Assembly (NCBI RefSeq): GCF_030013595.1
Contig: NZ_CP122768.1
Source: Escherichia coli
GTDB lineage: Bacteria > Pseudomonadota > Gammaproteobacteria > Enterobacterales > Enterobacteriaceae
Strand: one strand, 5' to 3'
DNA: 64,000 bases
Positions 1-13,061 of the stretch are shown here, one piece after another. The position numbers and the translations under genes are program-made. Position 1 is the first letter of the stretch. Each line of letters opens with the position of its first letter. The notes below the pieces were generated by a model. It was not told where the DNA came from. It did no database searches and was given only the letters and a program-made list of their open reading frames with translations.

Positions 1-1
1 G

Positions 2-442
2 CTTGATGCTGAAGATCAGGAGGCTGTACGTCAGCATGCTATCGCCGCCCTTAACCTCACGCAGCAGGCCAAGCGTCTTGCCACCGACGATAACGATGGG
101 ACGCTCAATACTGCTCTTATTGACGGAGTGCGTCGCTTTGCGATGGATGTGCGCGATTTAGACATAGACCTTATCGACCGCATCAATCCCTTTGGTGAAG
201 CCTACGCTATCCTTGCTAAGACGATGAGTGAAGACAGTTTGAAGCAGGTCGCGGCGGCAATCTCGGCCAAGCGTACCTCGATCACACCTGAAGATGCCAA
301 GGTGATCGCCAAGCGTGCCGCTGAATTCAAACGTGAACGTGGCCGCCTCCCATCGTTAACTTCGCCGGATGCTTGGGAAAAACACCTTGCTGAAGGTGCA
401 GCTGCGTTTATGCGTTTTAGGGCGGAGGGACGTTATGAATAA
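2..442 (+). CDS. 3' portion of a gene that starts upstream of the window; hypothetical protein
   Basis: Frame of ORF 128..442 stays open back to the window start (LDAEDQEAVRQHAIAAL...); stop TAA 440-442 overlaps the ATG of the next gene (ATGAATAA), suggesting a co-translated pair. Confidence 0.5.
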   Translation, partial: LDAEDQEAVRQHAIAALNLTQQAKRLATDDNDGTLNTALIDGVRRFAMDVRDLDIDLIDRINPFGEAYAILAKTMSEDSLKQVAAAISAKRTSITPEDAKVIAKRAAEFKRERGRLPSLTSPDAWEKHLAEGAAAFMRFRAEGRYE

Positions 443-1613
443 TTCTGATTTAGACGATTTGGCAGCAGAACTTGCCGAGTTTGCACCACCTGAGAAGAAA
501 AAAGGACGTCCAGCCAGCGAGGAACGCATCATAGCCGGTTTTGAAGAGATCCAGCGCTTTACTGAGCAACATGGGCGTGTCCCGCAACATGGCGAAGAGC
601 GTGATATCTTCGAGCGTCTCTATGCAGTGCGGCTCGACCGCCTACGCAGTCTCCCAGACTGCCGTGCCTTGCTAGAGCCACTGGATCATCAGGGCTTATT
701 AGCTGGAGGGGGCGATGTAGCGGAGTCTGCGGACGAAATTATCGATATCGATAACTTGGCTGCCGAACTGGCGGATGTTTCCAGCGAGGACGATATCACG
801 GTCTTGCGTCATGTTCGTGCTAGCACCGAAAAGCGCGTTGTACAAGGAGTTGCGGATCGCAAGCCGTGCGAGGATTTTGATGCGTTCAAACCACTATTTG
901 AGCAGGTACGCAATGATCTAAGTTCAGGGTTAAGAGTGACCCGACCTTTTGGGCAGTATGCAACGATTGAAGTGGGTCATTGGTTTATCCTGGATGGTCA
1001 AACGGCTTATGTGTCTGAGGAAGGTGAAGAGTTCGATTCTCCACAGGGGAAGAAAGATGCTCGGCTGCGTGTCATTTATTCGAATGGTACAGAAAGCAAC
1101 CTACTTCGGCTGTCATTGGTTCGTGCTTTGTATAAAGACGAAACAGCGCGTCGAATTACCGATCCAGACATGGGGCCTTTATTCAGCGATGCTCTAGAAG
1201 AGAGCGATCTAGAAAGTGGCACTATTTATGTGTTGCGTTCGCTATCTGATAACCCTTATGTAGCTGAACATCGTGATGTCATTCACAAGATTGGAGTGAC
1301 TGGCGGCAAAGTAGAGGCGCGTATTGCCAATGCGGAACACGATTCCACCTATCTGTTAGCGAAAGTCGAGGTGGTAGCTTCATACAAGCTTGCAGGCATC
1401 AACAGCACCCGGATGGAAAACCTGTTTCACAGGTTGTTTGCACCCGCAAGGCTTAACATTACCATTAACGACCGTTTCGGCCATCCAGTGCAGCCCGAGG
1501 AATGGTTTCTCGTTCCGTTATTCGTTATCGATGAGGCTGTTGCACGTATTAAGGATGGTAGCATCATTGGGTATGTTTATGACCCCATGTCTGCGAAACT
1601 GGTGAAGGCATAG
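435..1613 (+). CDS. hypothetical protein with GIY-YIG/T5orf172-like motif region
   Basis: ATG 435 preceded by GGAGGGA; 392 aa; segment TIYVLRSLSDNPYVAEHRDVIHKIGVTGGKVEARI resembles the T5orf172 signature (G.VYVL...KIG.T); assignment by motif recall only. Confidence 0.5.
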   Translation: MNNSDLDDLAAELAEFAPPEKKKGRPASEERIIAGFEEIQRFTEQHGRVPQHGEERDIFERLYAVRLDRLRSLPDCRALLEPLDHQGLLAGGGDVAESADEIIDIDNLAAELADVSSEDDITVLRHVRASTEKRVVQGVADRKPCEDFDAFKPLFEQVRNDLSSGLRVTRPFGQYATIEVGHWFILDGQTAYVSEEGEEFDSPQGKKDARLRVIYSNGTESNLLRLSLVRALYKDETARRITDPDMGPLFSDALEESDLESGTIYVLRSLSDNPYVAEHRDVIHKIGVTGGKVEARIANAEHDSTYLLAKVEVVASYKLAGINSTRMENLFHRLFAPARLNITINDRFGHPVQPEEWFLVPLFVIDEAVARIKDGSIIGYVYDPMSAKLVKA

Positions 1614-1639
1614 TGAAGTGACACACTGAATTTGGCCAC

Positions 1640-1672
1640 CTGTTCTGAGGTGAGTATATCACCTCAGAACAG
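1640..1672. terminator. perfect 14-bp inverted repeat hairpin (5-nt loop) 27 bp after the stop of the preceding gene; no T-tract
   Basis: ctgttctgaggtga-gtata-tcacctcagaacag read directly; could be a terminator or a recombination/insertion target. Confidence 0.4.
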
Positions 1673-1841
1673 CACAGGAATAAAAGATACTGATTTGAAT
1701 GTGCCTATACTTTGTGATGTGAGGATCAATGAATAGTAACCTGATCAAGATATGTTACCGTGGTGAGACTGGTGAAAGTGGTGAAAGTGATCTAAGAACA
1801 TTGATACTTGGTGAGATTCTATATATCTCACTATGAAGTGG

Positions 1842-2261
<420 letters not shown>

Positions 2262-2448
2262 GTAAGCGTCGTCTGAGTACCGTCTGGTCCCGAATCCAGG
2301 ATCCTGTAACTTAAGCACCCACTTATTTTGCAGGTGGACACCTCATGCGCACCAAAGAACGACTCCCCCGGAAACGCTATTCTCCTGAATTTAAAATGGA
2401 ACTGGTCAGGCTGGCCCTTGAACAAGATATCACGAACGGTGCAATAGT

Positions 2449-4171
2449 GGTTCTTCCGCAACTTGGGTGGAAGAAAATGGATGAAACTTTCTGGTGAACA
2501 AGGATCTAAGCTGTTTTAAGTTATGGGCAACGCAATGCACTCTCTTAAGACACTTCTACAGTTACCTTGCGGATGGCGATGCAGTCGACAAATTATTAGC
2601 TCTGACGGTATCACCCTCCATCTCCACGGAAAACGCAAAACAGCACAATGTCCTGAATGCTCTAAGCGTAGCGACTCTGTTCATAGTTCTCGTCGGCGCC
2701 GGATACAGCATCTACCCTGCTCCGGGCAGACGCTATGGCTTGTATTTTCCGTCCGCCACTGGTACTGCCGTAACCCGGCTTGTTCACGTAAAATTTTTGC
2801 CGAGTCGCTTGCTCCCTTCGCCGGTTCACACCAGCAGTCTTCACAGGCGTTACAAAATTTACAACGTCAACTGGGATTAATAGCTGGAGGTGAGGCTGGA
2901 AAACGGGCTGCAACGGCAGCGGGTCTCCGTTGCAGTGCTGATACTCTTCTTCGCAGGGTTATCAATACCCCGGAGACGAAACAGTCAGGCGCGCCTCATG
3001 TCGGTATTGATGAGTGGGCGTGGCATCGGGGCCACTGCTGCGGTATGTTAATAGTCAATCTTGATACTCACCGTCCCCTCGTCCTGCTTCCCGGCCGTGA
3101 TCAGCGTACGCTGGCGACCTGGTTCAGAAAATATCCGGAAATACAGGTTGTCTCGCGTGATCGCAGTGGAGTCTATGCGACAGCAGCACGTGAAGGTGCA
3201 CCTCAGGCCAGACAGGTGGCCGATCGATGGCACCTGCTAAAAAATATTGGTGATGAGCCTGAACGAATGATGTACAGACATATACCTCTGATACGTCTTG
3301 TTGCCAGTGAGTTGTCACCAAAGAAATCACCTGAGCCAGAACTGTCTGTGCCTGCAGCATCGCTCCGTCGTCCGGAACGCCTTAAACAGCAAACCCGCAA
3401 AAAACGGCATCAGCGTTGGACAGAGGTTATGGCCCTGCATAACAAGGGATGTAGTTTCAGGGAAATATCCCGTATTACAGGCCTGTCGCGTGTGACAGTC
3501 AGTCGCTGAGTACGTTCAGGAACATTCCCTGAAATGTCAACCCGACCTCCAAAGCGAGGGCTTTTGGACCCATGGAGGGAGTGGTTAAAAGAGCAACGAG
3601 AAAGTGGGAATTATAACGCCAGCCGGATAATGGCGGGAAATGGTGGTCCGGGGGTTTACAGGCAGTGAAACCATTGTCAGGGATACTGTTGCCAAATGGC
3701 GTAAAGGCTGGATCCCACCGGTTACTACTGCCGTCAGACTTCCTTCAGTGTCCCGGGTAAGGCGCTGGTTGATGCCCTGGAGAATAATCAGGGATGAAGA
3801 AAATTATGCTTCCCGATTTATTAGTCTGATGTGTGAAAAAGAACCGGAGCTGAAAATAGCGCAGCAACTGGTACTCGAGTTCTACCGTATTCTGAAAACC
3901 CAAAATAAATCACAGCTTAGCAGCTGGTTCACTCGAGTCCACGAAAGCGGTTCAGCAGAACTTCGGCGCGTGGCTGCGGGGATGGAAGCTGATGCTGCGG
4001 CTATATGTGAGGCAATCAGCAGTCGCTGGAGTAATGGTGTTGTCGAAGGTCATGTAAATCGCCTGAAGATGTTGAAACGCCAGATGTATGGTCGAGCCGG
4101 ATTTGAACTGCTCAGGCAGAGGGTCATGAGTCCACTGGCATGAAAATCTCCACCCAAGTTGCGGAAGAACC
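2449..4171 (+). mobile_element. ISL3-family insertion sequence with ~24-bp terminal inverted repeats, nested inside the IS66 orfA
   Basis: Left end ggttcttccgcaacttgggtggaag (2449-2473) is the reverse complement of the right end ctccacccaagttgcggaagaacc (4148-4171); the transposase reading frames lie between. Confidence 0.7.
2523..4143 (+). pseudogene. ISL3-family transposase, disrupted (at least two frame changes between 3509 and 3640)
   Basis: N-terminal zinc-finger-like CPEC...C..PAC, central GIDEWAWHRGHCCGMLIVNLD...VSRDRSGVY...VADRWHLLKN, C-terminal SNGVVEGHVNRLKMLKRQMYGRAGFELLRQR split across ORFs 2523..3509 and 3640..4143. Confidence 0.65.
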
Positions 4172-4498
4172 ACTTTTCATCCGTCGTTGACACAAGAGGG
4201 CAGTATCGCTGCTCTGGCCCGTCAACATGACGTCAACGATAATCTGCTCTTTAAATGGATAAGGCTCTAGCAACGTGAAGGGCGGGCGGGTCTGTCGACC
4301 CCGAAAAAATGCATCGTCGCTTCCTGCCCTGATACCCGTGCAACTTCAGGCGGAGCCTTCTCTCCCGGCATTCGAACCACCATCCTGTTCACCTACCACT
4401 GCCTGCCACATAAAATGTCGGGGCGGAGAAATAACACTGACCTCTCCCTCAGTTGAGCTTATGAGCACTGTCCTGCGCGAACTGATGCGGGGGTCTGT

Positions 4499-4864
4499 AT
4501 GATAAATCTTCCCGCAGGCACAAAAATCTGGCTGGTTGCCGGTATCACCGATATGCGCAACGGCTTCAATGGTCTCGCCGCAAAGGTGCAGACAGCGTTG
4601 AAAGATGACCCGATGTCCGGCCACGTCTTCATCTTCCGGGGCCGCAGCGGCAGTCAGGTCAAACTGCTGTGGTCCACCGGCGACGGACTGTGCCTGCTGA
4701 CCAAAAGGCTGGAGCGTGGCCGCTTCGCCTGGCCGTCGACCCGCGATGGCAAAGTGTTCCTGACGCCGGCGCAGCTGGCGATGCTGATGGAAGGTATCGA
4801 CTGGCGACAGCCAAAGCGGTTACTGACGTCCCTGACATGTTGTAGCCCAGGTCTTCTTCGTTGA
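4499..4864 (+). CDS. IS66-family orfB (TnpB-like accessory protein)
   Basis: MINLPAGTKIWLVAGITDMRNGFNGLAAKVQ...FIFRGRSGSQVKLLW...DGLCLLTKRLERGRFAWP matches the conserved IS66 Orf2 family. Confidence 0.75.
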   Translation: MINLPAGTKIWLVAGITDMRNGFNGLAAKVQTALKDDPMSGHVFIFRGRSGSQVKLLWSTGDGLCLLTKRLERGRFAWPSTRDGKVFLTPAQLAMLMEGIDWRQPKRLLTSLTCCSPGLLR

Positions 4865-5684
4865 TAAAGTTCACATCCAGAGGATGGATACTTCCTGTAG
4901 CCCGTAATATCGTCGGTTCAATATCCTGCACATTCATCGGGATCACCGATGCAAGAAAAGCCCATTGATCAGAATAAGGCTGGAAATTAATATCAACAAA
5001 AACGCTTCCCCCCGATGCACGCGGTCTTTTTTGCAGAGGTAACGCGATAAGATTACCAAATCCTCCTTTTGGCATAGTATCCTGATTAGGAAATAATCGG
5101 TCATAAGAACTCAATTGCAGCTGTCGGGTCCGGCTGCACGTATAGCTAATAATAGCAGTCCCCAGACGGCGAGCTTCGCGGGCCGAAACTCGTGAAGCAA
5201 AAAATATCCAGACATGCGCTCCCTGACGTGAGCGGGATATTTCCAGCGCAGCAGGTACACTCAGCTCATCACAGGCTCGCATGAACGCGGATGCATCCTT
5301 CTGCCATTCAGCTTTATCAAAATCAACAGCCAGAAAATAACAGGAATCATCTTCCAGCAACGGATATAACCCGGCAGTATGCGTGCCTGCCAGATGCTGG
5401 TAGATGACAAGATCAGATACAGGGAGTAACTGACGGTGCGTACAGTCCCCGCATTTTATCCGGGGTTTACCGCATATTCTCGCCTGCCATTCGTTAGCGC
5501 AGGCAGGAGAGTACCCTGATTTGCCGCTGGTTTTACTTTCCCAACGAAGGGCCCATATATCATCACGCCCACGAAACAACCGACGAAATAATGCAACCTT
5601 CTCGTCGGTGGATAATACGGAAACGCGCTGCACAGGGCTCGGCGGTTTACGTCGCCATTCCAAGTAATGAGACCAGACGGGCAT
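4850..5684 (-). pseudogene. archaeo-eukaryotic-type primase-polymerase-like protein, N-terminal fragment; C-terminus replaced by the IS66 remnant (boundary approximate)
   Basis: ORF 4659..5684 contains DxD-like YFLAVDFDKAEW and sGxH-like SRQGAHVWIFF motifs plus Cys cluster CGKPRIKCGDC; its last ~60 codons are antisense to IS66 orfB, so the gene is truncated near 4850. Confidence 0.35.
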
Positions 5685-5887
5685 TTTCTGCCCTCAATGC
5701 AGCTAATTCATCGCTGTCAGATTTATGAACCATATTCGTTACCTGTATCCGATCCACTGAGGCACCACGGCAGAAATTCGGGTCCCCTACACTGATGACA
5801 AAGCGCCCCGCCCTCTTCTGCCTATTAACTCAAGCACCTCCCAACAACTTACAGAAACTTAATTCTAATACCTAATACAGCTGTAAT

Positions 5888-6451
5888 TCAGTTGTGTCGT
5901 GGTCGGCCCCGGTTACTTTTTTCGGGAAGCCTGCTACGGCCCAGAATAATACCGTGTTCTTTCTGATCCTGTTTAGCCAGGTAGCTGAGGGCGTAACGTA
6001 AGTCGTCTACCGCGGACTTATCACTATAGTGAATCACGTGATCGATACGCACCGGGTATTTATCTTTAGCCCGGCACAGATGAAAATAACCATCCCCTTC
6101 CGTGATCCGCCTCCAGATATCTCCCAGTTGCCTGGATATCTGATAAGAGTTCTTGTGACGTTGTCCATCCAGGTAGCCGATAAAATGAATATGAAGCCCT
6201 TTGTCTGGTGTATATTCCATAACCCAGTAATATCCTGCCAACATCGTTTGGTTTTCGCTAAGTAAACGGTATATTTCCATACACATACTGTGCTTACAGG
6301 AATGCCCGAAACTGGGCGTGTATTTCCTGTAGGCAAAATCAATTCTGAAAGGTAACAGTTTAGAAAAACGTTGAAACAGACCTTCCATGTGTTCATTCAC
6401 ATCTTTCAGAATCGCGAAATTCATTTCGTAATTGGGATTGGCATTATACAT
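5888..6451 (-). CDS. YagK/YfjJ-family (inovirus Gp2-like) prophage protein
   Basis: 187-aa ORF; resemblance to the YfjJ/YagK C-terminal domain family found in CP4-type cryptic prophages (by recall). Confidence 0.5.
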   Translation of the reverse strand: MYNANPNYEMNFAILKDVNEHMEGLFQRFSKLLPFRIDFAYRKYTPSFGHSCKHSMCMEIYRLLSENQTMLAGYYWVMEYTPDKGLHIHFIGYLDGQRHKNSYQISRQLGDIWRRITEGDGYFHLCRAKDKYPVRIDHVIHYSDKSAVDDLRYALSYLAKQDQKEHGIILGRSRLPEKSNRGRPRHN

Positions 6452-7423
6452 TTTATAGTCCTTACTTTATAAAATTCACAGGAAGAGGGAATTACGTAAA
6501 TACTGAGAGTACATAAACGCCGTACCACGGCATTAATAAACGAGGTAACCAGCAGTACAGACAACCTGATAAAACTGTTTGGTATTACCTCATTACAATG
6601 AGGTAATACTTCAGAATACAGTGAGGCTCTCTTAAACAGAGGACTAGTAAGAATTACAATGGCAAAAACACACCTCATAGAATTAAGTTTAAGGAAGTAC
6701 CATTCAATCACTTACAGGAAGTAATCTGATCTTCACAAAAGTCAGCTATCGAATAGCCACAGGCAACATCGCTATTAATATTGCCGTACCATTAAGTAAA
6801 AACAGGGACTCTGCAGAGAGAGCCTACAGATATTTAACCTCACAATAAGAAGATTATTTTATACAGAAAATATTATATTTACCCATACTTATAAACTGTA
6901 ATGGAGCTATAACATACGAACTAAAGACAATATACTCTAATAGTGTTCTGGTACGTAACTAGTGTTAAATACAAACCAGACATACATTCAGTGGATTAAC
7001 TATCTCAATATTACGCTATGAGCGTAGTAACATAATTTACACATAACTAAACCCCATACACCTCCACACTGTAGTATATGGGATAGACGCATTACGCACA
7101 TACAGAATACTCAGCATAACATAAAGAGGAGTGACATTACGATAAAAAGAGACAACATAACAGATAACATAACTCCCATTAATAATACTAATTAACCTAA
7201 ATTATTTATTGAATACGAAAACAATGAAGGCCCCACCTCACCTCAGACTAAAGCCGACAATATCCTGAGCAACAGGATATCCAATAGTAAATAGTGGTTA
7301 CACCAGTTATATTTACTGACTGACCTGTACCAGAGTTTTCTAATACAACGCTGACATGGTAAAGGCATTAGTCTCCTCCGCAAGTAGCAGAGGAGACTAT
7401 ATGTTAGTCAACGATTAAGTTGT

Positions 7424-8874
7424 TCAGAGGTCAAAGTTAGGTGCGACACACAACGTTTTTCCCTCAATAACCGGTACAACTCTGTTTTGTTCATACAGTA
7501 AATCCAGTAACCAGTTGATTTTATCCTTTTTCCGGAAACGGTTCGGACCACGCTGTAAAATGTCATTTTTTTTCATACAGAGGATCCCCTTCTCAATGCA
7601 ATAGCTTTTTATCCAGTTGAAAAGTTCAAGCTCCTCTGGAATGAGTCGCACAGGTACGGTCAGGGCAGGGTTGTCAAAAGTTAACGGATTAGACAACCGC
7701 ACATACTCATTACCGTACCATATTGCTAATTCTCTCGCCATTTCTGCAATGTAAGGGGAAATCTCCCCCTCCTCACCGCTCGAATGGTAAATAAGTCCTG
7801 CCAGTCTTGCCATATACTCTGCATTTTTAGCAGCATATTCCCGGCAATGTCTTAAAGGCCCCAATCCCCCCAGCTTCGATTCCACATCATTGTAATAATC
7901 CGTCCAGATTCTGGCAGCCTGAGGAGAAAAGTGAAGGCAACGTCGTTCACCACTCATCGCCAGACTTTCATCAATAAGCTCATTGATCCTCTGTTCAAAC
8001 AAATCCTGATACTGTGATGAATAATTATCTCCGGTTATTATCCTTGTCCCCTGCGTTGATGTTGGTTGACACATCAAAAACCTTGCATGATGTCCTGACG
8101 TTTTCACAAGTTCTTTTTTTCGCGTACAAAAACCTTTGTGGTAAACATCAGGCTGAATCATCGCCGACATCGTCAGTCTTGGCTCCTTCAAATTAATTCC
8201 GGGAGATGATTTCCTGTCGATGAAAAGAGAACCTCCATCCCACAAAGTGTTAATAATTCCCAGTTTACTCATGGCCCGGCTGTCAAAAATTCCCCCCCTT
8301 CACTGGATACAAGAGCAAAAGAACGATTGCTATCGGAGTAATATTTTAACATTCCCTCTATCGTTGTCTCATTAAAAATTGTTCGACGTATCTGCGGCGG
8401 AACAGGAGACTTATTCAGATGCGTTTCAAGCTCTGATTCTGTTGCCTTGTAATCTTTACCGGCACGAATCTCTTTATGAAATTTTGATTCCAGCGCTTTT
8501 TGTTTTTGCTCCCATATTTCCTTTTCTGTGCTGTAATTCTCAACCAGTTTCGCGTATTCTTCCGCCAGGGCTTCATCCCTGAGATAAAATGCTTTCATAA
8601 ACACTTTATCCACGGTCGTTTTCCTTTCACCAGAATCAGCCAGAATCAGAGAGTAAAGATTAACAGGCCCACGTAAATTTCCAGGTCTGCACACGTCAAT
8701 CTGATTCTGACAGGCAATTGAGATCGCTGTTAATGCGGATGTCGCCACCATAGCCAAAGGTGCCTGTGTATTTTTTTGAGTTTCAATTATTGCATTTCTC
8801 ACCAGCGGTGGTAGTGCATATATCGGATAAGGATTTTCTGGTGCAAGTAAGCACATAAAAGCCTCTCTTTTCAT
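7424..8874 (-). pseudogene. DUF3987 (YfjI-like) protein split into 201-aa and 282-aa reading frames at a G7 homopolymer/ATGA junction
   Basis: ORFs 8269..8874 and 7424..8272 lie in different frames; coding-strand G7 tract (plus-strand C7 at 8292-8298) sits 20 nt before the junction; adding one G would fuse them into ~483 aa. Confidence 0.55.
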
Positions 8875-9104
8875 TAATGGGTTAGTAAAGTAGCAGCAAC
8901 TCCCGCTATAATAGCGAAATAGCTGCTGTTCAGACCTAATGTTCTGAGAAATACAGAATATCTGTAGATCTGATGTTTAATAAACCGATAAGGTTAATTC
9001 AGTTCATACTGTGTTATTTACCACGAAATATCATTCATGTTTCTCATTCTTAACACCTCCTAAAATTATTTCACTAACACCTTCCCCCCGGTCTTTTTCC
9101 TTTC

Positions 9105-9332
9105 TCAGGAATCAGCCAGAACCATAGTGTAAATATTAACGGGCCCACGTAAATTTCCGGGGTTGCACACGTCAATCTGATTCTGACAGGCAATTGATAT
9201 CGCTGTTAATAATGATGTTGTAGTCATAGCCAGAGATGCTTTTTCATTGTGTTGAGTTTCAATTATTGCATTTCCAGTCATTGATGGTTGCGCATATACT
9301 GGATACGGAGTATCCGGTTTGATGTAAGACAT
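9105..9332 (-). pseudogene. truncated duplicate of the N-terminus of the DUF3987 gene
   Basis: 75-aa ORF ...GNAIIETQHNEKASLAMTTTSLLTAISIACQNQIDVCNPGNLRGPVNIYTMVLADS parallels ...RNAIIETQKNTQAPLAMVATSALTAISIACQNQIDVCRPGNLRGPVNLYSLILADS of ORF 8269..8874. Confidence 0.5.
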
Positions 9333-9437
9333 AAATATTTCCTTTTTTCGTAATAACTTTCGGTTATAGCAGCTATTTCCGCTACAATAGCAACAATAGC
9401 TGCTATACAGACTGGATATACTGAAAATACAGACAGT

Positions 9438-9686
9438 TCATCTGGTCTGTATCCAGCAGAGAAGGTCACTTAACAACCATCCGCAAGATTTCTTTCCGAT
9501 AGACTTACGTGGTGGAAATGTTCCCTCCCGTTCAAGTTTCCACGCTTGTGTACGAGAAATTGACGTGATCTCATATCGTTCCTTTTCACGTACCAGTCTG
9601 TCGCATTCAATCCCATAAGCTTTCAAAATGACCAGACGCTGTTCATCTGTTAATGGAAGCCACATACTACCCTCCTGATATATCAA
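9438..9686 (-). CDS. AlpA-family phage/island transcriptional regulator (HTH)
   Basis: C-terminal ...ITSISRTQAWKLEREGTFPPRKSIGKKSCGWLLSDLLCWI matches the AlpA pattern (helix-turn-helix followed by ...G...W...W); position next to the DUF3987 gene as in CP4-57-type islands. Confidence 0.6.
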   Translation of the reverse strand: MIYQEGSMWLPLTDEQRLVILKAYGIECDRLVREKERYEITSISRTQAWKLEREGTFPPRKSIGKKSCGWLLSDLLCWIQTR

Positions 9687-10355
9687 TACTTTTTATTTCC
9701 GGCATGAGCATGAAATGACTAAGTTTCCCGGATAAACAATGAGTGAAAGTCACTATCATTCATCCAGTCAACACCTTACAAATAAAATGTAATACTATGA
9801 TTTTTATAGGTCAAAATACTGAATTGAAATGTTAAAATGGCTTTTAATAGAAAAAATAAAGACATATAGAACCAAATAAAAACAAGCCGCGACCAATAAA
9901 AACAAAAATTAATATTAAAAATCCATTATGACGATTTTTGTTGACTAAAATTAGGTTGGGATATATAAATAAATCCATGTAAAATTCAAACAAAGCATGG
10001 AGGAGTCGCAGGAAGGTGAAATATTTCCATCTAATTTGTGATAATCATCACAAAAATAAGCTACAACAAGCGGAGGAAAAGACAATCTGTTGCTGAACAG
10101 ACAGAAGCAGGCTACGAATGATCGGAAAATGAAGCAAATACGCTTATACAGAAGACGCAGAGGTAACTGACGGAGACAATCACAATCAGGAGAAAATTAT
10201 CGTAAATAATGTATAAAATCTCAGGATATAAACAAATGTACACAAGCTATCCACGTAATCAGCGGCTGGCTCAGGATTAACGTTTCATTTCAGTGGACAA
10301 CATCGATTCTGTCTGACAGCGGACCAATATGTAGCAAGCAGAAACTTCTGACATC

Positions 10356-11954
10356 ATGGTAACTCGGACAATGCAACAAAAGTATCAGTATGATCGTGTT
10401 TTATCCGGCGAACTCCACCCATTCCCTGGCATATACGAGGCGGTTTCCGAACAAATCCTTTTGCTCATTTTTAAAGCACGTCAACTATATCAGGATCCAG
10501 AATATCGCCCCTGGTTTGAAGAACAGCACAGAGTACTCTCTGCATTACGTGCCAATACAGAGCTCCTGAGAATCTTTAGAGAACAAAGAAGCGCTGAAGA
10601 ACCAAAGCTTACTATTGAAGAGTCTACCTCCCCCCAACCCACTCCTTCTGCTCTTACAGATGCGCTTAATGTGATGTGCCATTTATACAATGGTTTTGAT
10701 GAAGGAAATATCAGTCTGAAAACTTGGGGGGCGATGCAAGAGGTACAGACAACATCAACCTTTATCAGCCCAGGACCGAGAACCTGGAAAACACCTGAAC
10801 TGGCAAAGTTTGTAGGAGATGATTTATTTAATATTCTGACTGAATGTAAGGCCTGGAGTTCACCAATTCCAGCAGAAACCCGACAGGGGTATTGCCATCA
10901 GGATCTGTCTGTTGCACACTCCTGCACCTCAGAGTTACTGGCACACCTGAATCAATATCATGAAATTGATGAATCAGCAATACTTGCCAGAGTTATTGGT
11001 ATAACAGTTAACGGATTCTACAAGAAAAATAATACAGACCTTCCAGAATGGCTATCCCCCTTTAAAGAGGAACATAAAATATTCAGAGATTGTCCGGAGC
11101 AAAATACCGGGGATGTAATCAGACGGAAAGAACAACTGTTGAAAACAGGACGTACAGAATTCGTGAATAATTTGTGTCGGGTCGCCAACTGGTATGAAAT
11201 TGAGTCAATATACGATGAATACGTCCGTCTTTATGCCAATGAAATCATTGACTGGTTCAACAAAACCATGAAGTATTTTAAACCAACAGATTTTATCCGA
11301 TATACATGGAAATTCGCAACAGTTACTCCGGATAAAGATACAGAAACCGGGCATACAACTGCATGGGAAAAGGATTATTGCCAGATAACCATACAACGTG
11401 ATGAACTTCTGAGGTTGATTCACACCAATACCCTTCAGGATGCAGTAATTTATCTTTGTCATTGTCTACAGAAGGAATACAAGAAATCATCCCAAAATGA
11501 GATAGAGTTCCCAGGAATAAAACCTCCGACATCAGAGAGTAAAATTAATATAACAAATAATATTAAATTTCATTCTCTCCTGGAGCTCAGTAAAGATAAT
11601 GAGAAGCGTCTGGAAACATTTCAAAAATGGTATGAAAAAAATAAAGTTTTGTTAGAAAGTCATAAACAAAAACGAACAGAGAAGATTGACGTTGCCGTAC
11701 GACTTGTAGGGCTGAAAGCCTATGATCTGCATGAAGGGATTCCGGATAGTCCAAAACGAAAAGTTAAAGATGGCATAAATGAAGACATCAAAGCCGATAC
11801 CAGTTTACGCCTGTCAAAGACAAATATAAGTGATACGTCGCTAAACCGTTATCGCCGCACTGTTAAGGAGATTATCAATAACGAAATTGACGCATTCCTG
11901 TTGGAACAGAAGAAAAAAATAAAAGATTTCCCTACAGTGAAGATAGAGATGTGA
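10356..11954 (+). CDS. hypothetical protein, 532 aa, AT-rich island cargo gene; no recognisable domain
   Basis: Long ATG-initiated ORF with no stops in a visibly AT-rich block, preceded by ~670 bp of AT-rich non-coding DNA; lysine-rich C-terminal third. Confidence 0.6.
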   Translation: MVTRTMQQKYQYDRVLSGELHPFPGIYEAVSEQILLLIFKARQLYQDPEYRPWFEEQHRVLSALRANTELLRIFREQRSAEEPKLTIEESTSPQPTPSALTDALNVMCHLYNGFDEGNISLKTWGAMQEVQTTSTFISPGPRTWKTPELAKFVGDDLFNILTECKAWSSPIPAETRQGYCHQDLSVAHSCTSELLAHLNQYHEIDESAILARVIGITVNGFYKKNNTDLPEWLSPFKEEHKIFRDCPEQNTGDVIRRKEQLLKTGRTEFVNNLCRVANWYEIESIYDEYVRLYANEIIDWFNKTMKYFKPTDFIRYTWKFATVTPDKDTETGHTTAWEKDYCQITIQRDELLRLIHTNTLQDAVIYLCHCLQKEYKKSSQNEIEFPGIKPPTSESKINITNNIKFHSLLELSKDNEKRLETFQKWYEKNKVLLESHKQKRTEKIDVAVRLVGLKAYDLHEGIPDSPKRKVKDGINEDIKADTSLRLSKTNISDTSLNRYRRTVKEIINNEIDAFLLEQKKKIKDFPTVKIEM

Positions 11955-12078
11955 TTCGACCTTTATGGGGAAAATGCCTGACCGGGCAGTAGATCACAGA
12001 TGGGATAACATCCCGGTTATCCCCTGTTTGTTCTGCTTCAGGTTGCCAGAGCTCCAGGAACACGAGGCAATCGGCAAA

Positions 12079-12675
12079 TTATGCGGCTTTTCCATTAACA
12101 GATTCGGCCACAAGAACAACACCGTGTTTGTTTCGATCAGGATGTTCACTCCAGATTTCTGATTCAGGAATACTTTCCCCATCATAGCAGATCCGATCAC
12201 CATCAAACGGATAATACCGTGCGGAATCTGTATCTAAGATAAACACCTTAAGATTCGTTGAACGACGCGCTATATGCTGCCAGAGGGCTTTACCTCCTTC
12301 ATATTGCTCGTTATCACTTAATAGTATAACGCCTGCTTTTGTGGCTATTGTTTCATAAACAAACGTAGCAAGGCTAACATCACGTACAGCACCATCGACA
12401 ACAATCCCTTCAATCTGAGCAACGTCCTGTTCTTCCCAGAATTTCCGGACAAACACCCCTTCAAGCTGTGAACGACGCTGAAGCTCCAGAGTGGCAACAA
12501 CCTTATGGCGAATATCACCATCAATAACAGAAGGTGCAGCTTCGATTACCGCAGCGAACGGAGTCTTTGGATCCCAGATGATCTGGTAAAGCACACCCTG
12601 AATAGTTACTCCATCCAGTATCGAAAAACGACGAGCTACAGTAGCAGGGGAGTAAGACATTGGAATGACAGCCAT
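12079..12675 (-). CDS. hypothetical protein, 198 aa, adjacent to the tRNA 3' end
   Basis: ATG-initiated ORF convergent with the 532-aa gene; no recognisable motif; no clear Shine-Dalgarno upstream. Confidence 0.5.
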   Translation of the reverse strand: MAVIPMSYSPATVARRFSILDGVTIQGVLYQIIWDPKTPFAAVIEAAPSVIDGDIRHKVVATLELQRRSQLEGVFVRKFWEEQDVAQIEGIVVDGAVRDVSLATFVYETIATKAGVILLSDNEQYEGGKALWQHIARRSTNLKVFILDTDSARYYPFDGDRICYDGESIPESEIWSEHPDRNKHGVVLVAESVNGKAA

Positions 12676-12985
12676 TTTATGGCCTAAAATTTGAAAACAT
12701 CAGTATCAATACTGACCTCATCAGTCTGAGCATATATTGATAAAGTTTTTATGTTTACACTCAATAAATACCTTACCAAACAACTAATAGCGATGTCTAC
12801 ATTGCCATTCGACATGCTTACAATTTTTGTCAACAAGAAAGTGAATTTATATCAACGGTAAGAAGTAAACACGAGGACACCAAAACCAAATGTACACACT
12901 TTTGTGCTTTGTGTCCCCTGTGTGTACCCAAATGACAAACTGCAAGAAAATCTAGGCACACACTTATCTAACTTATTGATTTAAA

Positions 12986-13061
12986 TGGTGCCGATAATAG
13001 GAGTCGAACCTACGACCTTCGCATTACGAATGCGCTGCTCTACCAACTGAGCTATATCGGC
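12986..13061 (-). tRNA. thrW: tRNA-Thr (anticodon CGU), thrW-like; island integration site at its 3' end
   Basis: Reverse complement reads GCCGATATAGCTCAGTTGGTAGAGCAGCGCATTCGTAATGCGAAGGTCGTAGGTTCGACTCCTATTATCGGCACCA: cloverleaf-compatible, anticodon loop ttCGTaa, CCA end. Confidence 0.93.

What the first reader, a model, noticed from the sequence alone, without database searches (positions are those of the whole stretch)
2..1613. Overlapping gene pair at the island edge with a T5orf172/GIY-YIG-like protein
The window opens inside a gene whose stop overlaps the start of a 392-aa protein carrying a T5orf172-like signature (TIYVLRS...HKIGVTGGKVEARI), followed by a perfect 14-bp hairpin. The upstream partner is cut by the window edge, so the system cannot be reconstructed here.
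Basis: partly seen in the sequence, partly recalled or inferred. Interest (0 to 1): 0.5.

Follow-up and report, generated by a model that had tools for sequence, protein, structure and literature searches.

The report
Helicase–nuclease end of restriction-like operon
The window opens on the last two genes (helicase tail and GIY-YIG nuclease) of a three-gene methylase–helicase–nuclease operon already described in other bacteria as a probable restriction-type phage defence, so it is a real but largely ordinary find whose biochemistry nobody has yet worked out.

Summary
Window 2-442 is the last 146 codons of a gene whose TAA (440-442) overlaps by 8 nt the ATG (435) of a 392-aa protein. That protein has Pfam T5orf172/MUG113 hits and a GIY-YIG fold. 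A perfect 14-bp hairpin follows at 1640-1672.

Near-identical E. coli genomes supply the missing upstream part. It is a 681-aa SF2 (DEAD/DEAH) helicase preceded by a 928-aa MmeI-type adenine methyltransferase that lacks MmeI's PD-ExK nuclease residues.

This matches the methylase-helicase-GIY-YIG triad (B. subtilis YeeA/DnmA-YeeB-YeeC) described by Morgan et al. 2009. That triad was inactive against three phages in B. subtilis but protective in Vibrio crassostreae. In 80 related loci the helicase was adjacent in 69/69 and the methylase upstream in 60/60.

Most likely function: an ATP-dependent, Type I/ISP-like restriction-modification defence. This is inferred, not demonstrated.

The pair sits mid-island (thrW island), not at its edge. 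The hairpin belongs to an IS911-like left-end relic that starts one base after the stop codon; it is not a canonical terminator.

Verdict: new member of a known, biochemically uncharacterised kind; modest interest.

The parts
2..442 (+). Last 146 codons plus the TAA stop of a 681-aa SF2 (DEAD/DEAH, ResIII-like) helicase, YeeB-like. This C-terminal extension lies outside the motor core.
   Evidence: The window is identical at protein level to the last 146 residues of WP_001060305.1. The full protein has Pfam DEAD at 9.6e-06 and ResIII at 2e-05. Walker A SGKS (K55), DEFH, TGS and QIIGRATR motifs are visible in the translation. The C-terminus is conserved to residue 681 in relatives.
424..442 (+). 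Translational-coupling junction: GGAGG ribosome-binding site (424-428), nuclease ATG (435-437), helicase TAA (440-442).
   Evidence: Read directly from the sequence. In 69 of 69 related loci with enough upstream DNA the helicase gene lies directly upstream on the same strand, its match ending within 120 nt of the nuclease start; raw coordinates show overlap in many loci.
435..1613 (+). 392-aa three-domain nuclease subunit, YeeC-like (WP_001065545.1 with one substitution, S324 instead of R324).
   Evidence: The family has 2390 representatives at 50% clustering with E<=1e-3 and 581 with E<=1e-30, mostly full length.
513..683 (+). N-terminal helical domain (aa 27-83). Conserved; function unknown; candidate docking surface for the helicase or methylase.
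   Evidence: AlphaFold2 pLDDT is 87-97 over aa 21-90, with helices 27-46, 58-72 and 74-83. F36, F42, P50, E60, R66 and L67 are nearly invariant.
867..1169 (+). Middle domain (aa 145-245): one helix plus a small SH3/Tudor-like beta-barrel.
1212..1610 (+). C-terminal T5orf172 / GIY-YIG nuclease domain (aa 260-392) with its catalytic residues intact.
1614..1691 (+). Relic of an IS911-like (IS3 family) left end. It begins TGAAGTG one base after the stop codon and contains the 14-bp hairpin (1640-1672).
   Evidence: The relic aligns with the IS911 left end taken from L001:21440-21640(-) from the terminal TGAAGTG through the hairpin. It is retained downstream of the nuclease in a Klebsiella plasmid and in two other E. 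coli contexts that diverge after it.

Best explanation
The finding is the 3' end of a three-gene operon carried on a thrW-inserted genomic island of E. coli. The genes are an MmeI-type N6-adenine methyltransferase/target-recognition subunit (928 aa, outside the window), an SF2 helicase (681 aa, last 146 aa in the window) and a GIY-YIG/T5orf172 nuclease (392 aa, complete in the window). It belongs to the YeeA(DnmA)-YeeB-YeeC class.

Proposed mechanism, step by step:
1. The MmeI-like subunit reads a short asymmetric site and methylates one adenine, marking host DNA. This is inferred from MmeI and from B. subtilis DnmA.
2. Its N-terminal domain has lost the PD-ExK catalytic residues (shown). It is presumed to serve instead as an adaptor for the other two subunits (inferred).
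3. On unmethylated sites the helicase hydrolyses ATP and translocates along DNA. Its motifs are shown to be intact; activity is inferred.
4. The GIY-YIG subunit cuts the DNA. It is made by translational coupling to the helicase and is probably tethered through its conserved N-terminal helical and SH3-like domains. Its catalytic residues and fold are shown; cleavage is inferred.

The net effect would be an ATP-dependent, Type I/Type ISP-like restriction of phage and plasmid DNA.
For: Identity of the operon:
- The window's first 1700 bases are 99.9% identical to 11 or more E. coli chromosomes annotated methyltransferase / DEAD-DEAH helicase / GIY-YIG nuclease, with overlapping junctions.
- The methyltransferase carries all five MmeI Pfam domains (MmeI_Mtase 1.3e-115, MmeI_TRD 7.5e-73, MmeI_N 2.2e-33). 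It matches the MmeI structure 5HR4 at 4.1e-132.
- D70, E80 and K82 of MmeI are replaced in this protein and in three distant helicase-linked homologues.

The nuclease:
- Pfam T5orf172/MUG113 hits, invariant catalytic residues and a GIY-YIG fold.
- A T5orf172-domain protein (phage ICP1 Odn) is described as an origin-directed nuclease giving double-strand cleavage (PMC8263062).

Synteny:
- The helicase is adjacent in 69/69 related loci and the MmeI-like gene lies upstream in 60/60.
- The same order holds in three loci where the nuclease is only 35-39% identical.

Defence context:
- Neighbours include SIR2+HerA, a Type ISP enzyme and NERD/PLD genes.
- The family is found on 228 plasmids, 94 of them conjugative.
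- The operon's GC content is 0.489, against 0.532 for core genes in the window.

Literature:
- Morgan et al. 2009 defined exactly this class and proposed this division of labour (PMC2731913).
- yeeAB gave phage resistance in V. crassostreae (bioRxiv 10.1101/2021.05.05.442762; PMC9973331).
Against: - No biochemical demonstration of restriction by any member turned up in the searchable literature.
- B. subtilis dnmA-yeeB-yeeC gave no protection against three phages, and its site is not depleted in phage genomes (PMC9973331).
- YeeA and a Moraxella homologue showed no endonuclease activity when expressed alone (PMC2731913).
- The PADLOC and NCBIfam libraries have no model for the helicase or nuclease as a system.
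- The window itself lacks the methyltransferase and 535 codons of the helicase, so whether the operon is intact in the source strain is inferred from relatives.
- The window's nuclease has S324 where RefSeq and the family consensus have R.
Confidence: 0.7

Rival explanations
1. Defunct relic. Only the methyltransferase still works, as an orphan epigenetic regulator. The helicase and nuclease genes in the window are non-functional passengers, as was proposed for B. subtilis DnmA-YeeB-YeeC.
For: The B. subtilis triad gave no phage protection and no effect on transformation, and its authors call it an RM relic (PMC9973331). The E. coli copy sits among IS debris and pseudogenes. The window's nuclease carries a private S324 substitution.
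Against: All three ORFs are intact. Helicase motifs and GIY-YIG catalytic residues are conserved. The helicase is the best-conserved of the three (median 81% identity across 68 loci, against 68% and 65.5%), which does not look like decay. Synteny is 69/69 and 60/60. Vibrio yeeAB is protective.
Confidence: 0.15
2. A non-degradative, BREX/DISARM-like exclusion system. The methylase marks self, and the helicase-nuclease pair blocks phage replication by remodelling or nicking rather than by classical double-strand restriction.
For: The methyltransferase shares regions with PglX/BrxX and DrmMI (PADLOC 1.2e-21 to DrmMI; PDB BrxX 1.5e-4). The DnmA site is not depleted in phage genomes, so any defence must differ from canonical RM (PMC9973331). 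Some GIY-YIG enzymes nick DNA (general knowledge).
Against: No other BREX or DISARM core genes are in the operon. The helicase gives no DrmA, DrmD or BrxH hits. A three-gene methylase/motor/nuclease layout is most simply a restriction enzyme.
Confidence: 0.1
3. The T5orf172 gene is a free-standing homing endonuclease or selfish insertion that merely landed next to a helicase.
For: T5orf172 domains are common in phage homing-endonuclease-like genes (PMC8263062). The locus is surrounded by mobile elements.
Against: The full 392-aa architecture, including the two non-nuclease domains, is conserved in hundreds of clusters. The gene is always translationally coupled to the same helicase family (69/69). 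PHROGs gives no phage family hit.
Confidence: 0.03

Closest known systems
B. subtilis DnmA(YeeA)-YeeB-YeeC and the V. crassostreae yeeAB(C) cluster: the 'second group' of MmeI homologues of Morgan et al. 2009.
   Same: Same three components in the same order. These are an MmeI-like methyltransferase without the PD-ExK motif, a DEAD-type SF2 helicase, and a GIY-YIG/T5orf172 protein whose nuclease domain is C-terminal. They also sit on horizontally acquired islands.
   Different: The E. coli member has not been studied. [quoted passage not shown] The E. coli helicase is 681 aa, and its C-terminal 146 aa are the part seen in the window. Direct sequence comparison with the B. subtilis proteins could not be run here.
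MmeI, a Type IIL/IIG single-chain restriction-modification enzyme (PDB 5HR4).
   Same: The methyltransferase partner shares the MmeI helical spacer, methyltransferase, TRD and C-terminal domains (E 4.1e-132) and a homologous N-terminal domain.
   Different: MmeI cuts with its own PD-ExK domain (D70/E80/K82) and needs no ATP or helicase. Here those residues are missing, and cleavage is presumably delegated to a separate helicase and GIY-YIG protein.
Type I (EcoKI-like) and Type ISP (LlaGI/LlaBIII) ATP-dependent restriction enzymes.
   Same: They combine an adenine methylase/TRD, an SF2 translocase and a nuclease. In 38 of 60 related loci variable genes (RhuM, YhcG/DUF1016, GmrSD_N, AlbA_2) are embedded inside the operon. 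To my recollection, similar genes are embedded in Type I hsd loci; this was not checked here.
   Different: The nuclease is a GIY-YIG on its own polypeptide rather than a PD-ExK/Mrr domain fused to the motor. The target is read by a fused MmeI-type TRD rather than by an HsdS subunit. Methylation is expected on one strand only (Morgan 2009).
ICP1 phage Odn (Gp88), a T5orf172-domain nuclease.
   Same: It has the same Pfam domain with conserved arginine and glutamate. It shows that a T5orf172 domain can be an active DNA endonuclease.
   Different: Odn is a stand-alone phage protein targeted by a RepA-like N-terminal domain. It has no helicase or methylase partner.

Membership tests
MmeI-like methylase / helicase / GIY-YIG triad (YeeA-YeeB-YeeC class) | A methyltransferase homologous to MmeI along its length. 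| tested here: met
   All five MmeI Pfam domains are present. Match to PDB 5HR4 at 4.1e-132. PADLOC PDLC03598 matches end to end at 1.4e-278.
MmeI-like methylase / helicase / GIY-YIG triad (YeeA-YeeB-YeeC class) | The N-terminal domain lacks the PD-ExK residues D70, E80 and K82 of MmeI. | tested here: met
   In alignment A2 these columns hold L, Q and L in the E. coli protein, and no D/E/K in three distant helicase-linked homologues. The motif positions come from PMC2731913. They are consistent with the paper's numbered residues E51, D70, E80 and K82 and with the PDB alignment that starts at residue 108. The alignment is weak in this region.
MmeI-like methylase / helicase / GIY-YIG triad (YeeA-YeeB-YeeC class) | A DEAD-type SF2 helicase gene directly downstream of the methylase. 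| tested here: met
   In E. coli the junction overlaps by 4 nt. The methylase lies upstream in 60/60 related loci; it is directly adjacent in 22 and separated by a 0.7-2.4 kb insert in 38.
MmeI-like methylase / helicase / GIY-YIG triad (YeeA-YeeB-YeeC class) | A GIY-YIG/T5orf172 protein as the third gene. | tested here: met
   The helicase is adjacent to the nuclease in 69/69 loci.
MmeI-like methylase / helicase / GIY-YIG triad (YeeA-YeeB-YeeC class) | Direct sequence homology to B. subtilis YeeB and YeeC. | not tested
   The B. subtilis sequences were not retrievable with these tools. Membership rests on architecture and on the papers' descriptions.
MmeI-like methylase / helicase / GIY-YIG triad (YeeA-YeeB-YeeC class) | Single-strand m6A at an asymmetric site, and phage restriction. 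| not testable with these tools
   This needs methylome sequencing and plating assays.
GIY-YIG nuclease superfamily | Profile match to a family of the superfamily. | tested here: met
   MUG113 at 5.8e-13 and T5orf172 at 3.9e-11. PMC8263062 states that T5orf172 belongs to the GIY-YIG superfamily.
GIY-YIG nuclease superfamily | Conserved catalytic Tyr (GIY), Arg and Glu. | tested here: met
   Y265, R296 and E356 are invariant. The second motif reads K285-I-G287 rather than YIG. H332 is nearly invariant.
GIY-YIG nuclease superfamily | The GIY-YIG alpha/beta fold. | tested here: met
Type IIL/IIG restriction enzyme (MmeI family proper) | A PD-ExK catalytic motif in the same polypeptide as the methylase. 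| tested here: not met
   The strong match to PADLOC's REase_MTase_IIG model would therefore give a misleading label for this protein.
DISARM / BREX | Core partners (DrmA/DrmB, or BrxA/B/C/L and PglZ) in the operon. | tested here: not met
   Only three genes are present. The helicase hits no Drm or Brx model. PglX models score far below their cut-offs.
Rho-independent terminator (for the hairpin) | A GC-rich stem followed by a U-tract. | tested here: not met
   The stem is present. No T-run follows on either strand, and the scan does not call it.
IS3-family (IS911-like) terminal inverted repeat relic (for 1614-1691) | Similarity to an IS911 end beginning TGAAGTG, at the right register. | tested here: met
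   The alignment with the IS911 left end from L001 runs continuously from the terminal TGAAGTG through the hairpin to CACAGG. A genuine IS911 right end lies at 1834.

The most novel reading that the evidence does not exclude
The triad could be a distinct, still unclassified class of ATP-dependent restriction enzyme. An MmeI-type reader/methylase with single-strand marking would license a separate SF2 motor. That motor's conserved C-terminal tail (the 146 aa seen in the window) would recruit a three-domain GIY-YIG nuclease through its helical and SH3-like domains. Cleavage rules would then differ from Types I, ISP and III. The methylase-helicase junction may also be a dedicated docking site for accessory defence genes. 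The intact E. coli copy would make all of this testable in the standard host.
Probability: 0.3. Interest if true: 0.55.

Novelty: new member of a known kind. Interest (0 to 1): 0.3.

Why it matters
The triad is widespread. At least 594 species genomes matched two narrow peptide patterns, and the nuclease family is found on 228 plasmids. It occurs in about 2% of complete E. coli genomes. Yet its mechanism has never been shown biochemically.

Automated defence predictors would probably label only the methylase, and label it as Type IIG. That would overlook the helicase and nuclease and imply a nuclease activity the methylase has probably lost.

An intact E. coli copy offers a convenient model to settle whether this is a working restriction system and how a GIY-YIG nuclease is coupled to a translocase. 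For the genome scan itself, the finding is a correct but unsurprising annotation.

Tried and rejected
Searches that returned nothing useful:
- PADLOC, NCBIfam and PHROGs gave nothing significant for the nuclease. The helicase drew only weak hits: PADLOC PbeA, NCBIfam dnd_restrict_1 far below its cut-off, and generic PHROG DNA-helicase families.
- PDB sequence searches found no relative of the nuclease or the helicase.
- The methylase N-terminus alone did not retrieve MmeI.
- Rfam found nothing in window 1-3000.
- NCBIfam found nothing for the inserted genes; Pfam did.
- A cluster look-up of ten representatives returned no names, so taxonomy came from the genome scan instead.

Structure searches with the full-length nuclease model gave only weak SH3/Tudor or eIF5A-like hits and no GIY-YIG enzymes. 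The fold became visible only after the C-terminal domain was modelled alone.

Ideas tested and dropped:
- That the helicase C-terminus and the nuclease N-terminus share a repeated 'helicase-associated' motif. BLASTP gave E = 8.3, so this was rejected.
- That the hairpin is the operon's conserved terminator. The terminator scan did not call it. Sequence downstream of the nuclease is unrelated in 79 relatives. The hairpin proved to be IS-derived.

The first genome scan failed because the 64-sequence alignment was too divergent. It was repeated with 14 closer sequences.

A fused helicase-tail/nuclease AlphaFold model was considered and not run. The tool returns no inter-domain error map or coordinates, so an interface could not have been judged.

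Full report
**1. What is in the sequence**

Frame 2 is open from window base 2 to a TAA at 440-442. An ATG at 435 opens a 392-codon ORF that ends at TAG 1611-1613. The two genes overlap by 8 nt (ATGAATAA), with a GGAGG 6 nt upstream of the ATG. This is the classic layout for translational coupling.

Pfam places MUG113 (5.8e-13) and T5orf172 (3.9e-11) on residues 262-372.

A perfect 14-bp inverted repeat with a 5-nt loop lies at 1640-1672. It folds at -36 kcal/mol, z = -5.4 against shuffles.

**2. The missing upstream part**

The first 1700 bases occur in 101 of 5426 complete E. coli genomes, 91 of them at full length and many at 99.9% identity. In those genomes the truncated gene is a 681-aa DEAD/DEAH-box helicase. 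It is preceded, with a 4-nt overlap, by a 928-aa 'class I SAM-dependent DNA methyltransferase'.

At protein level the window matches the reference helicase tail exactly. It differs from the reference nuclease by one residue, S324 for R324.

The helicase has weak DEAD and ResIII Pfam hits. Clear SF2 motifs are visible in the translation: SGKS with K55, DEFH, TGS and QIIGRATR.

The methyltransferase carries all five Pfam domains of MmeI and matches the MmeI crystal structure sequence at 4.1e-132. Where MmeI has its catalytic D70, E80 and K82 (positions from PMC2731913), this protein has L, Q and L. Three distant helicase-linked relatives likewise have no acidic/lysine triad there. They agree with the paper's numbered residues and with the PDB alignment that begins at residue 108. 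The alignment in this region is weak, so the result is firm about the absence of a conserved ExK and less firm about exact equivalences.

**3. The nuclease protein**

The 392-aa architecture is conserved as a whole. There are 2390 cluster representatives with E <= 1e-3 and 581 with E <= 1e-30, most of them 380-420 aa. In 64 sequences of 33-61% identity the invariant residues include Y265, K285, G287, R296, E328, E356 and W357, and H332 is nearly invariant. These are the GIY, (Y/K)IG, Arg and Glu positions expected of a GIY-YIG active site.

AlphaFold2 (pLDDT 87.7) resolves three confident modules joined by flexible linkers:
- a helical N-domain (aa 27-83);
- a helix plus small beta-barrel (aa 145-245);
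- the C-terminal domain (aa 260-392).

Whole-model searches found only weak SH3/Tudor-like or eIF5A-like matches for the middle barrel.

A T5orf172 protein, phage ICP1 Odn, is described as an origin-directed nuclease giving double-strand cleavage (PMC8263062).

No solved structure is related by sequence to either window protein.

**4. Is the three-gene unit real?**

A scan of one genome per species found at least 594 genomes with a relative.

Among the 80 loci kept (60-82% identity, mostly Proteobacteria):
- the helicase lies directly upstream on the same strand in 69 of 69 loci with enough flank;
- an MmeI-like gene lies further upstream in 60 of 60.

Three metagenomic loci whose nuclease is only 35-39% identical show the same order and overlapping junctions.

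The helicase is the best conserved component (median identity 81%). The methylase is at 68% and the nuclease at 65.5%.

Neighbouring genes are often defence genes: SIR2+HerA, a Type ISP enzyme, NERD, PLD and KAP-type proteins. The family is also found on 228 plasmids, 94 of them conjugative. These include a Klebsiella IncF/IncHI1B plasmid carrying a 96%-identical copy of the whole module.

**5. What is already known**

Morgan et al. 2009 divided MmeI homologues into two groups. Active Type IIL enzymes have the PD-ExK motif. A second group lacks it and is 'invariably' flanked by a DEAD-family helicase (B. subtilis YeeB) and a GIY-YIG protein (YeeC). The authors proposed that the MmeI-like subunit gives specificity and single-strand host methylation while the other two achieve scission. 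YeeA expressed alone had no endonuclease activity (PMC2731913).

Fernandez et al. 2023 confirmed the conserved synteny. [quoted passage not shown] In Vibrio crassostreae, inactivating yeeAB restored sensitivity to one phage group (bioRxiv 10.1101/2021.05.05.442762).

Four literature searches found no biochemical study of the complex. The E. coli locus is therefore a new, unstudied member of a described but mechanistically open class.

**6. Most likely mechanism**

I favour an ATP-dependent restriction-modification system of Type I/ISP logic. My confidence is about 0.95 that this is the triad and about 0.6 that it actively restricts.
- Shown here: gene order and coupling, intact methylase, helicase and nuclease motifs, loss of the methylase's own nuclease residues, the GIY-YIG fold, and the defence and mobile-element context.
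- Inferred: one-strand m6A marking, ATP-driven translocation from unmethylated sites, cleavage by the GIY-YIG subunit, and docking through the helicase C-terminal tail and the nuclease's N-terminal domains.

Three rivals remain:
- A decayed relic with an orphan methylase. The B. subtilis data support it. Conservation and intact motifs argue against it.
- A non-degradative, BREX/DISARM-like block. The methylase resembles PglX and DrmMI, but no other core genes are present.
- A selfish homing endonuclease. The invariant coupling to the helicase contradicts it.

**7.

The pair is not at the island edge. In the closest genome (98.9% identity over 21 kb), the island begins at an integrase next to yagU and includes CbtA/CbeA, RadC, an antirestriction gene, Ag43 and a YeeP-type GTPase. 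It then continues through IS debris to tRNA-Thr(CGT) beside proA. The operon sits in the middle, between IS remnants.

The hairpin has no U-tract and is not called as a terminator. The 70-78 nt after the stop codon begin TGAAGTG at 1614. They align with the left end of IS911 through the hairpin. This relic travels with the nuclease gene in a Klebsiella plasmid and in E. coli strains whose sequence diverges just after it. It may still act as a 3' stem-loop for the transcript, but its origin is an insertion sequence.

**8. Annotation caution**

PADLOC's REase_MTase_IIG model matches the methylase end to end (1.4e-278), while the helicase and nuclease have no defence-system model. Automated tools would therefore probably report a lone Type IIG enzyme. 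That label is wrong on the nuclease activity and misses two of the three genes.

Noticed in passing
window 1614-1691 (hairpin 1640-1672); L089:3001-3078: The sequence starting one base after the nuclease stop codon is a relic of an IS911-like left end and contains the 14-bp hairpin. In strain OSUCMP42NDM the same relic has its 5-nt loop inverted (TATAC instead of GTATA), as in IS911 itself (TATGC). This suggests a palindrome-mediated loop flip.
   Followed up: partly
window 1729-1833 and 1834-2106: The first ~105 nt of a BRO-N domain gene follow the relic; the gene is intact in strain EC2641, 115 nt after the nuclease. At 1834 it is cut by the right end of an inverted IS911 copy, whose transposase C-terminus is the minus-strand ORF 1939-2106.
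   Followed up: yes
related loci L010-L088, between the methylase and helicase genes: In 38 of 60 relatives a 0.7-2.4 kb insert separates the methylase from the helicase. It carries one or two same-strand genes from at least 12 unrelated families: RhuM, YhcG/DUF1016 PD-ExK nuclease, AlbA_2+HATPase_c_4, GmrSD_N/DUF262 and several with no Pfam hit. From memory (not checked here), this resembles the variable genes embedded in Type I hsd operons. The E. coli copy has no insert.
   Followed up: partly
window 1404 (codon 324 of the nuclease): There is a single A/C difference from the RefSeq copies. It gives S324 where the reference and the family consensus have R, at the start of a helix in the GIY-YIG domain. 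The position is not invariant, and the effect is unknown.
   Followed up: no
window 4659-5684 (-): A 341-aa ORF matches PADLOC PrimPol at 2.2e-128. In the closest genome it is annotated as a frameshifted, truncated 'TOTE conflict system archaeo-eukaryotic primase' pseudogene. It is the remnant of another conflict system on the same island.
   Followed up: partly
window 2523-4143 (+) and 7424-8874 (-): The ISL3 transposase and the YfjI-family gene are single ORFs in strain 2022H047. Each is split into two or more ORFs in different frames in the window, so both look frameshifted here.
   Followed up: no
window 12986-13061 (-): tRNA-Thr (anticodon CGT, thrW) next to proA marks the downstream boundary of the island. 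Window 1614-12985 has GC 0.441, against 0.532 for the core genes beyond it.
   Followed up: partly
window 10356-11954 (+) and 12079-12675 (-): Two island ORFs of 532 and 198 aa lie just inside the tRNA boundary. They have no PADLOC hit and are annotated only as hypothetical proteins.
   Followed up: partly
L003:2678-5733; L004:11635-16551; L006:9623-10282: Other defence genes sit beside distant copies of the triad. A SIR2+HerA pair overlaps the nuclease stop in L003. L004 has a 1638-aa Type ISP enzyme. L006 has a second, short T5orf172 protein on the opposite strand.
   Followed up: no
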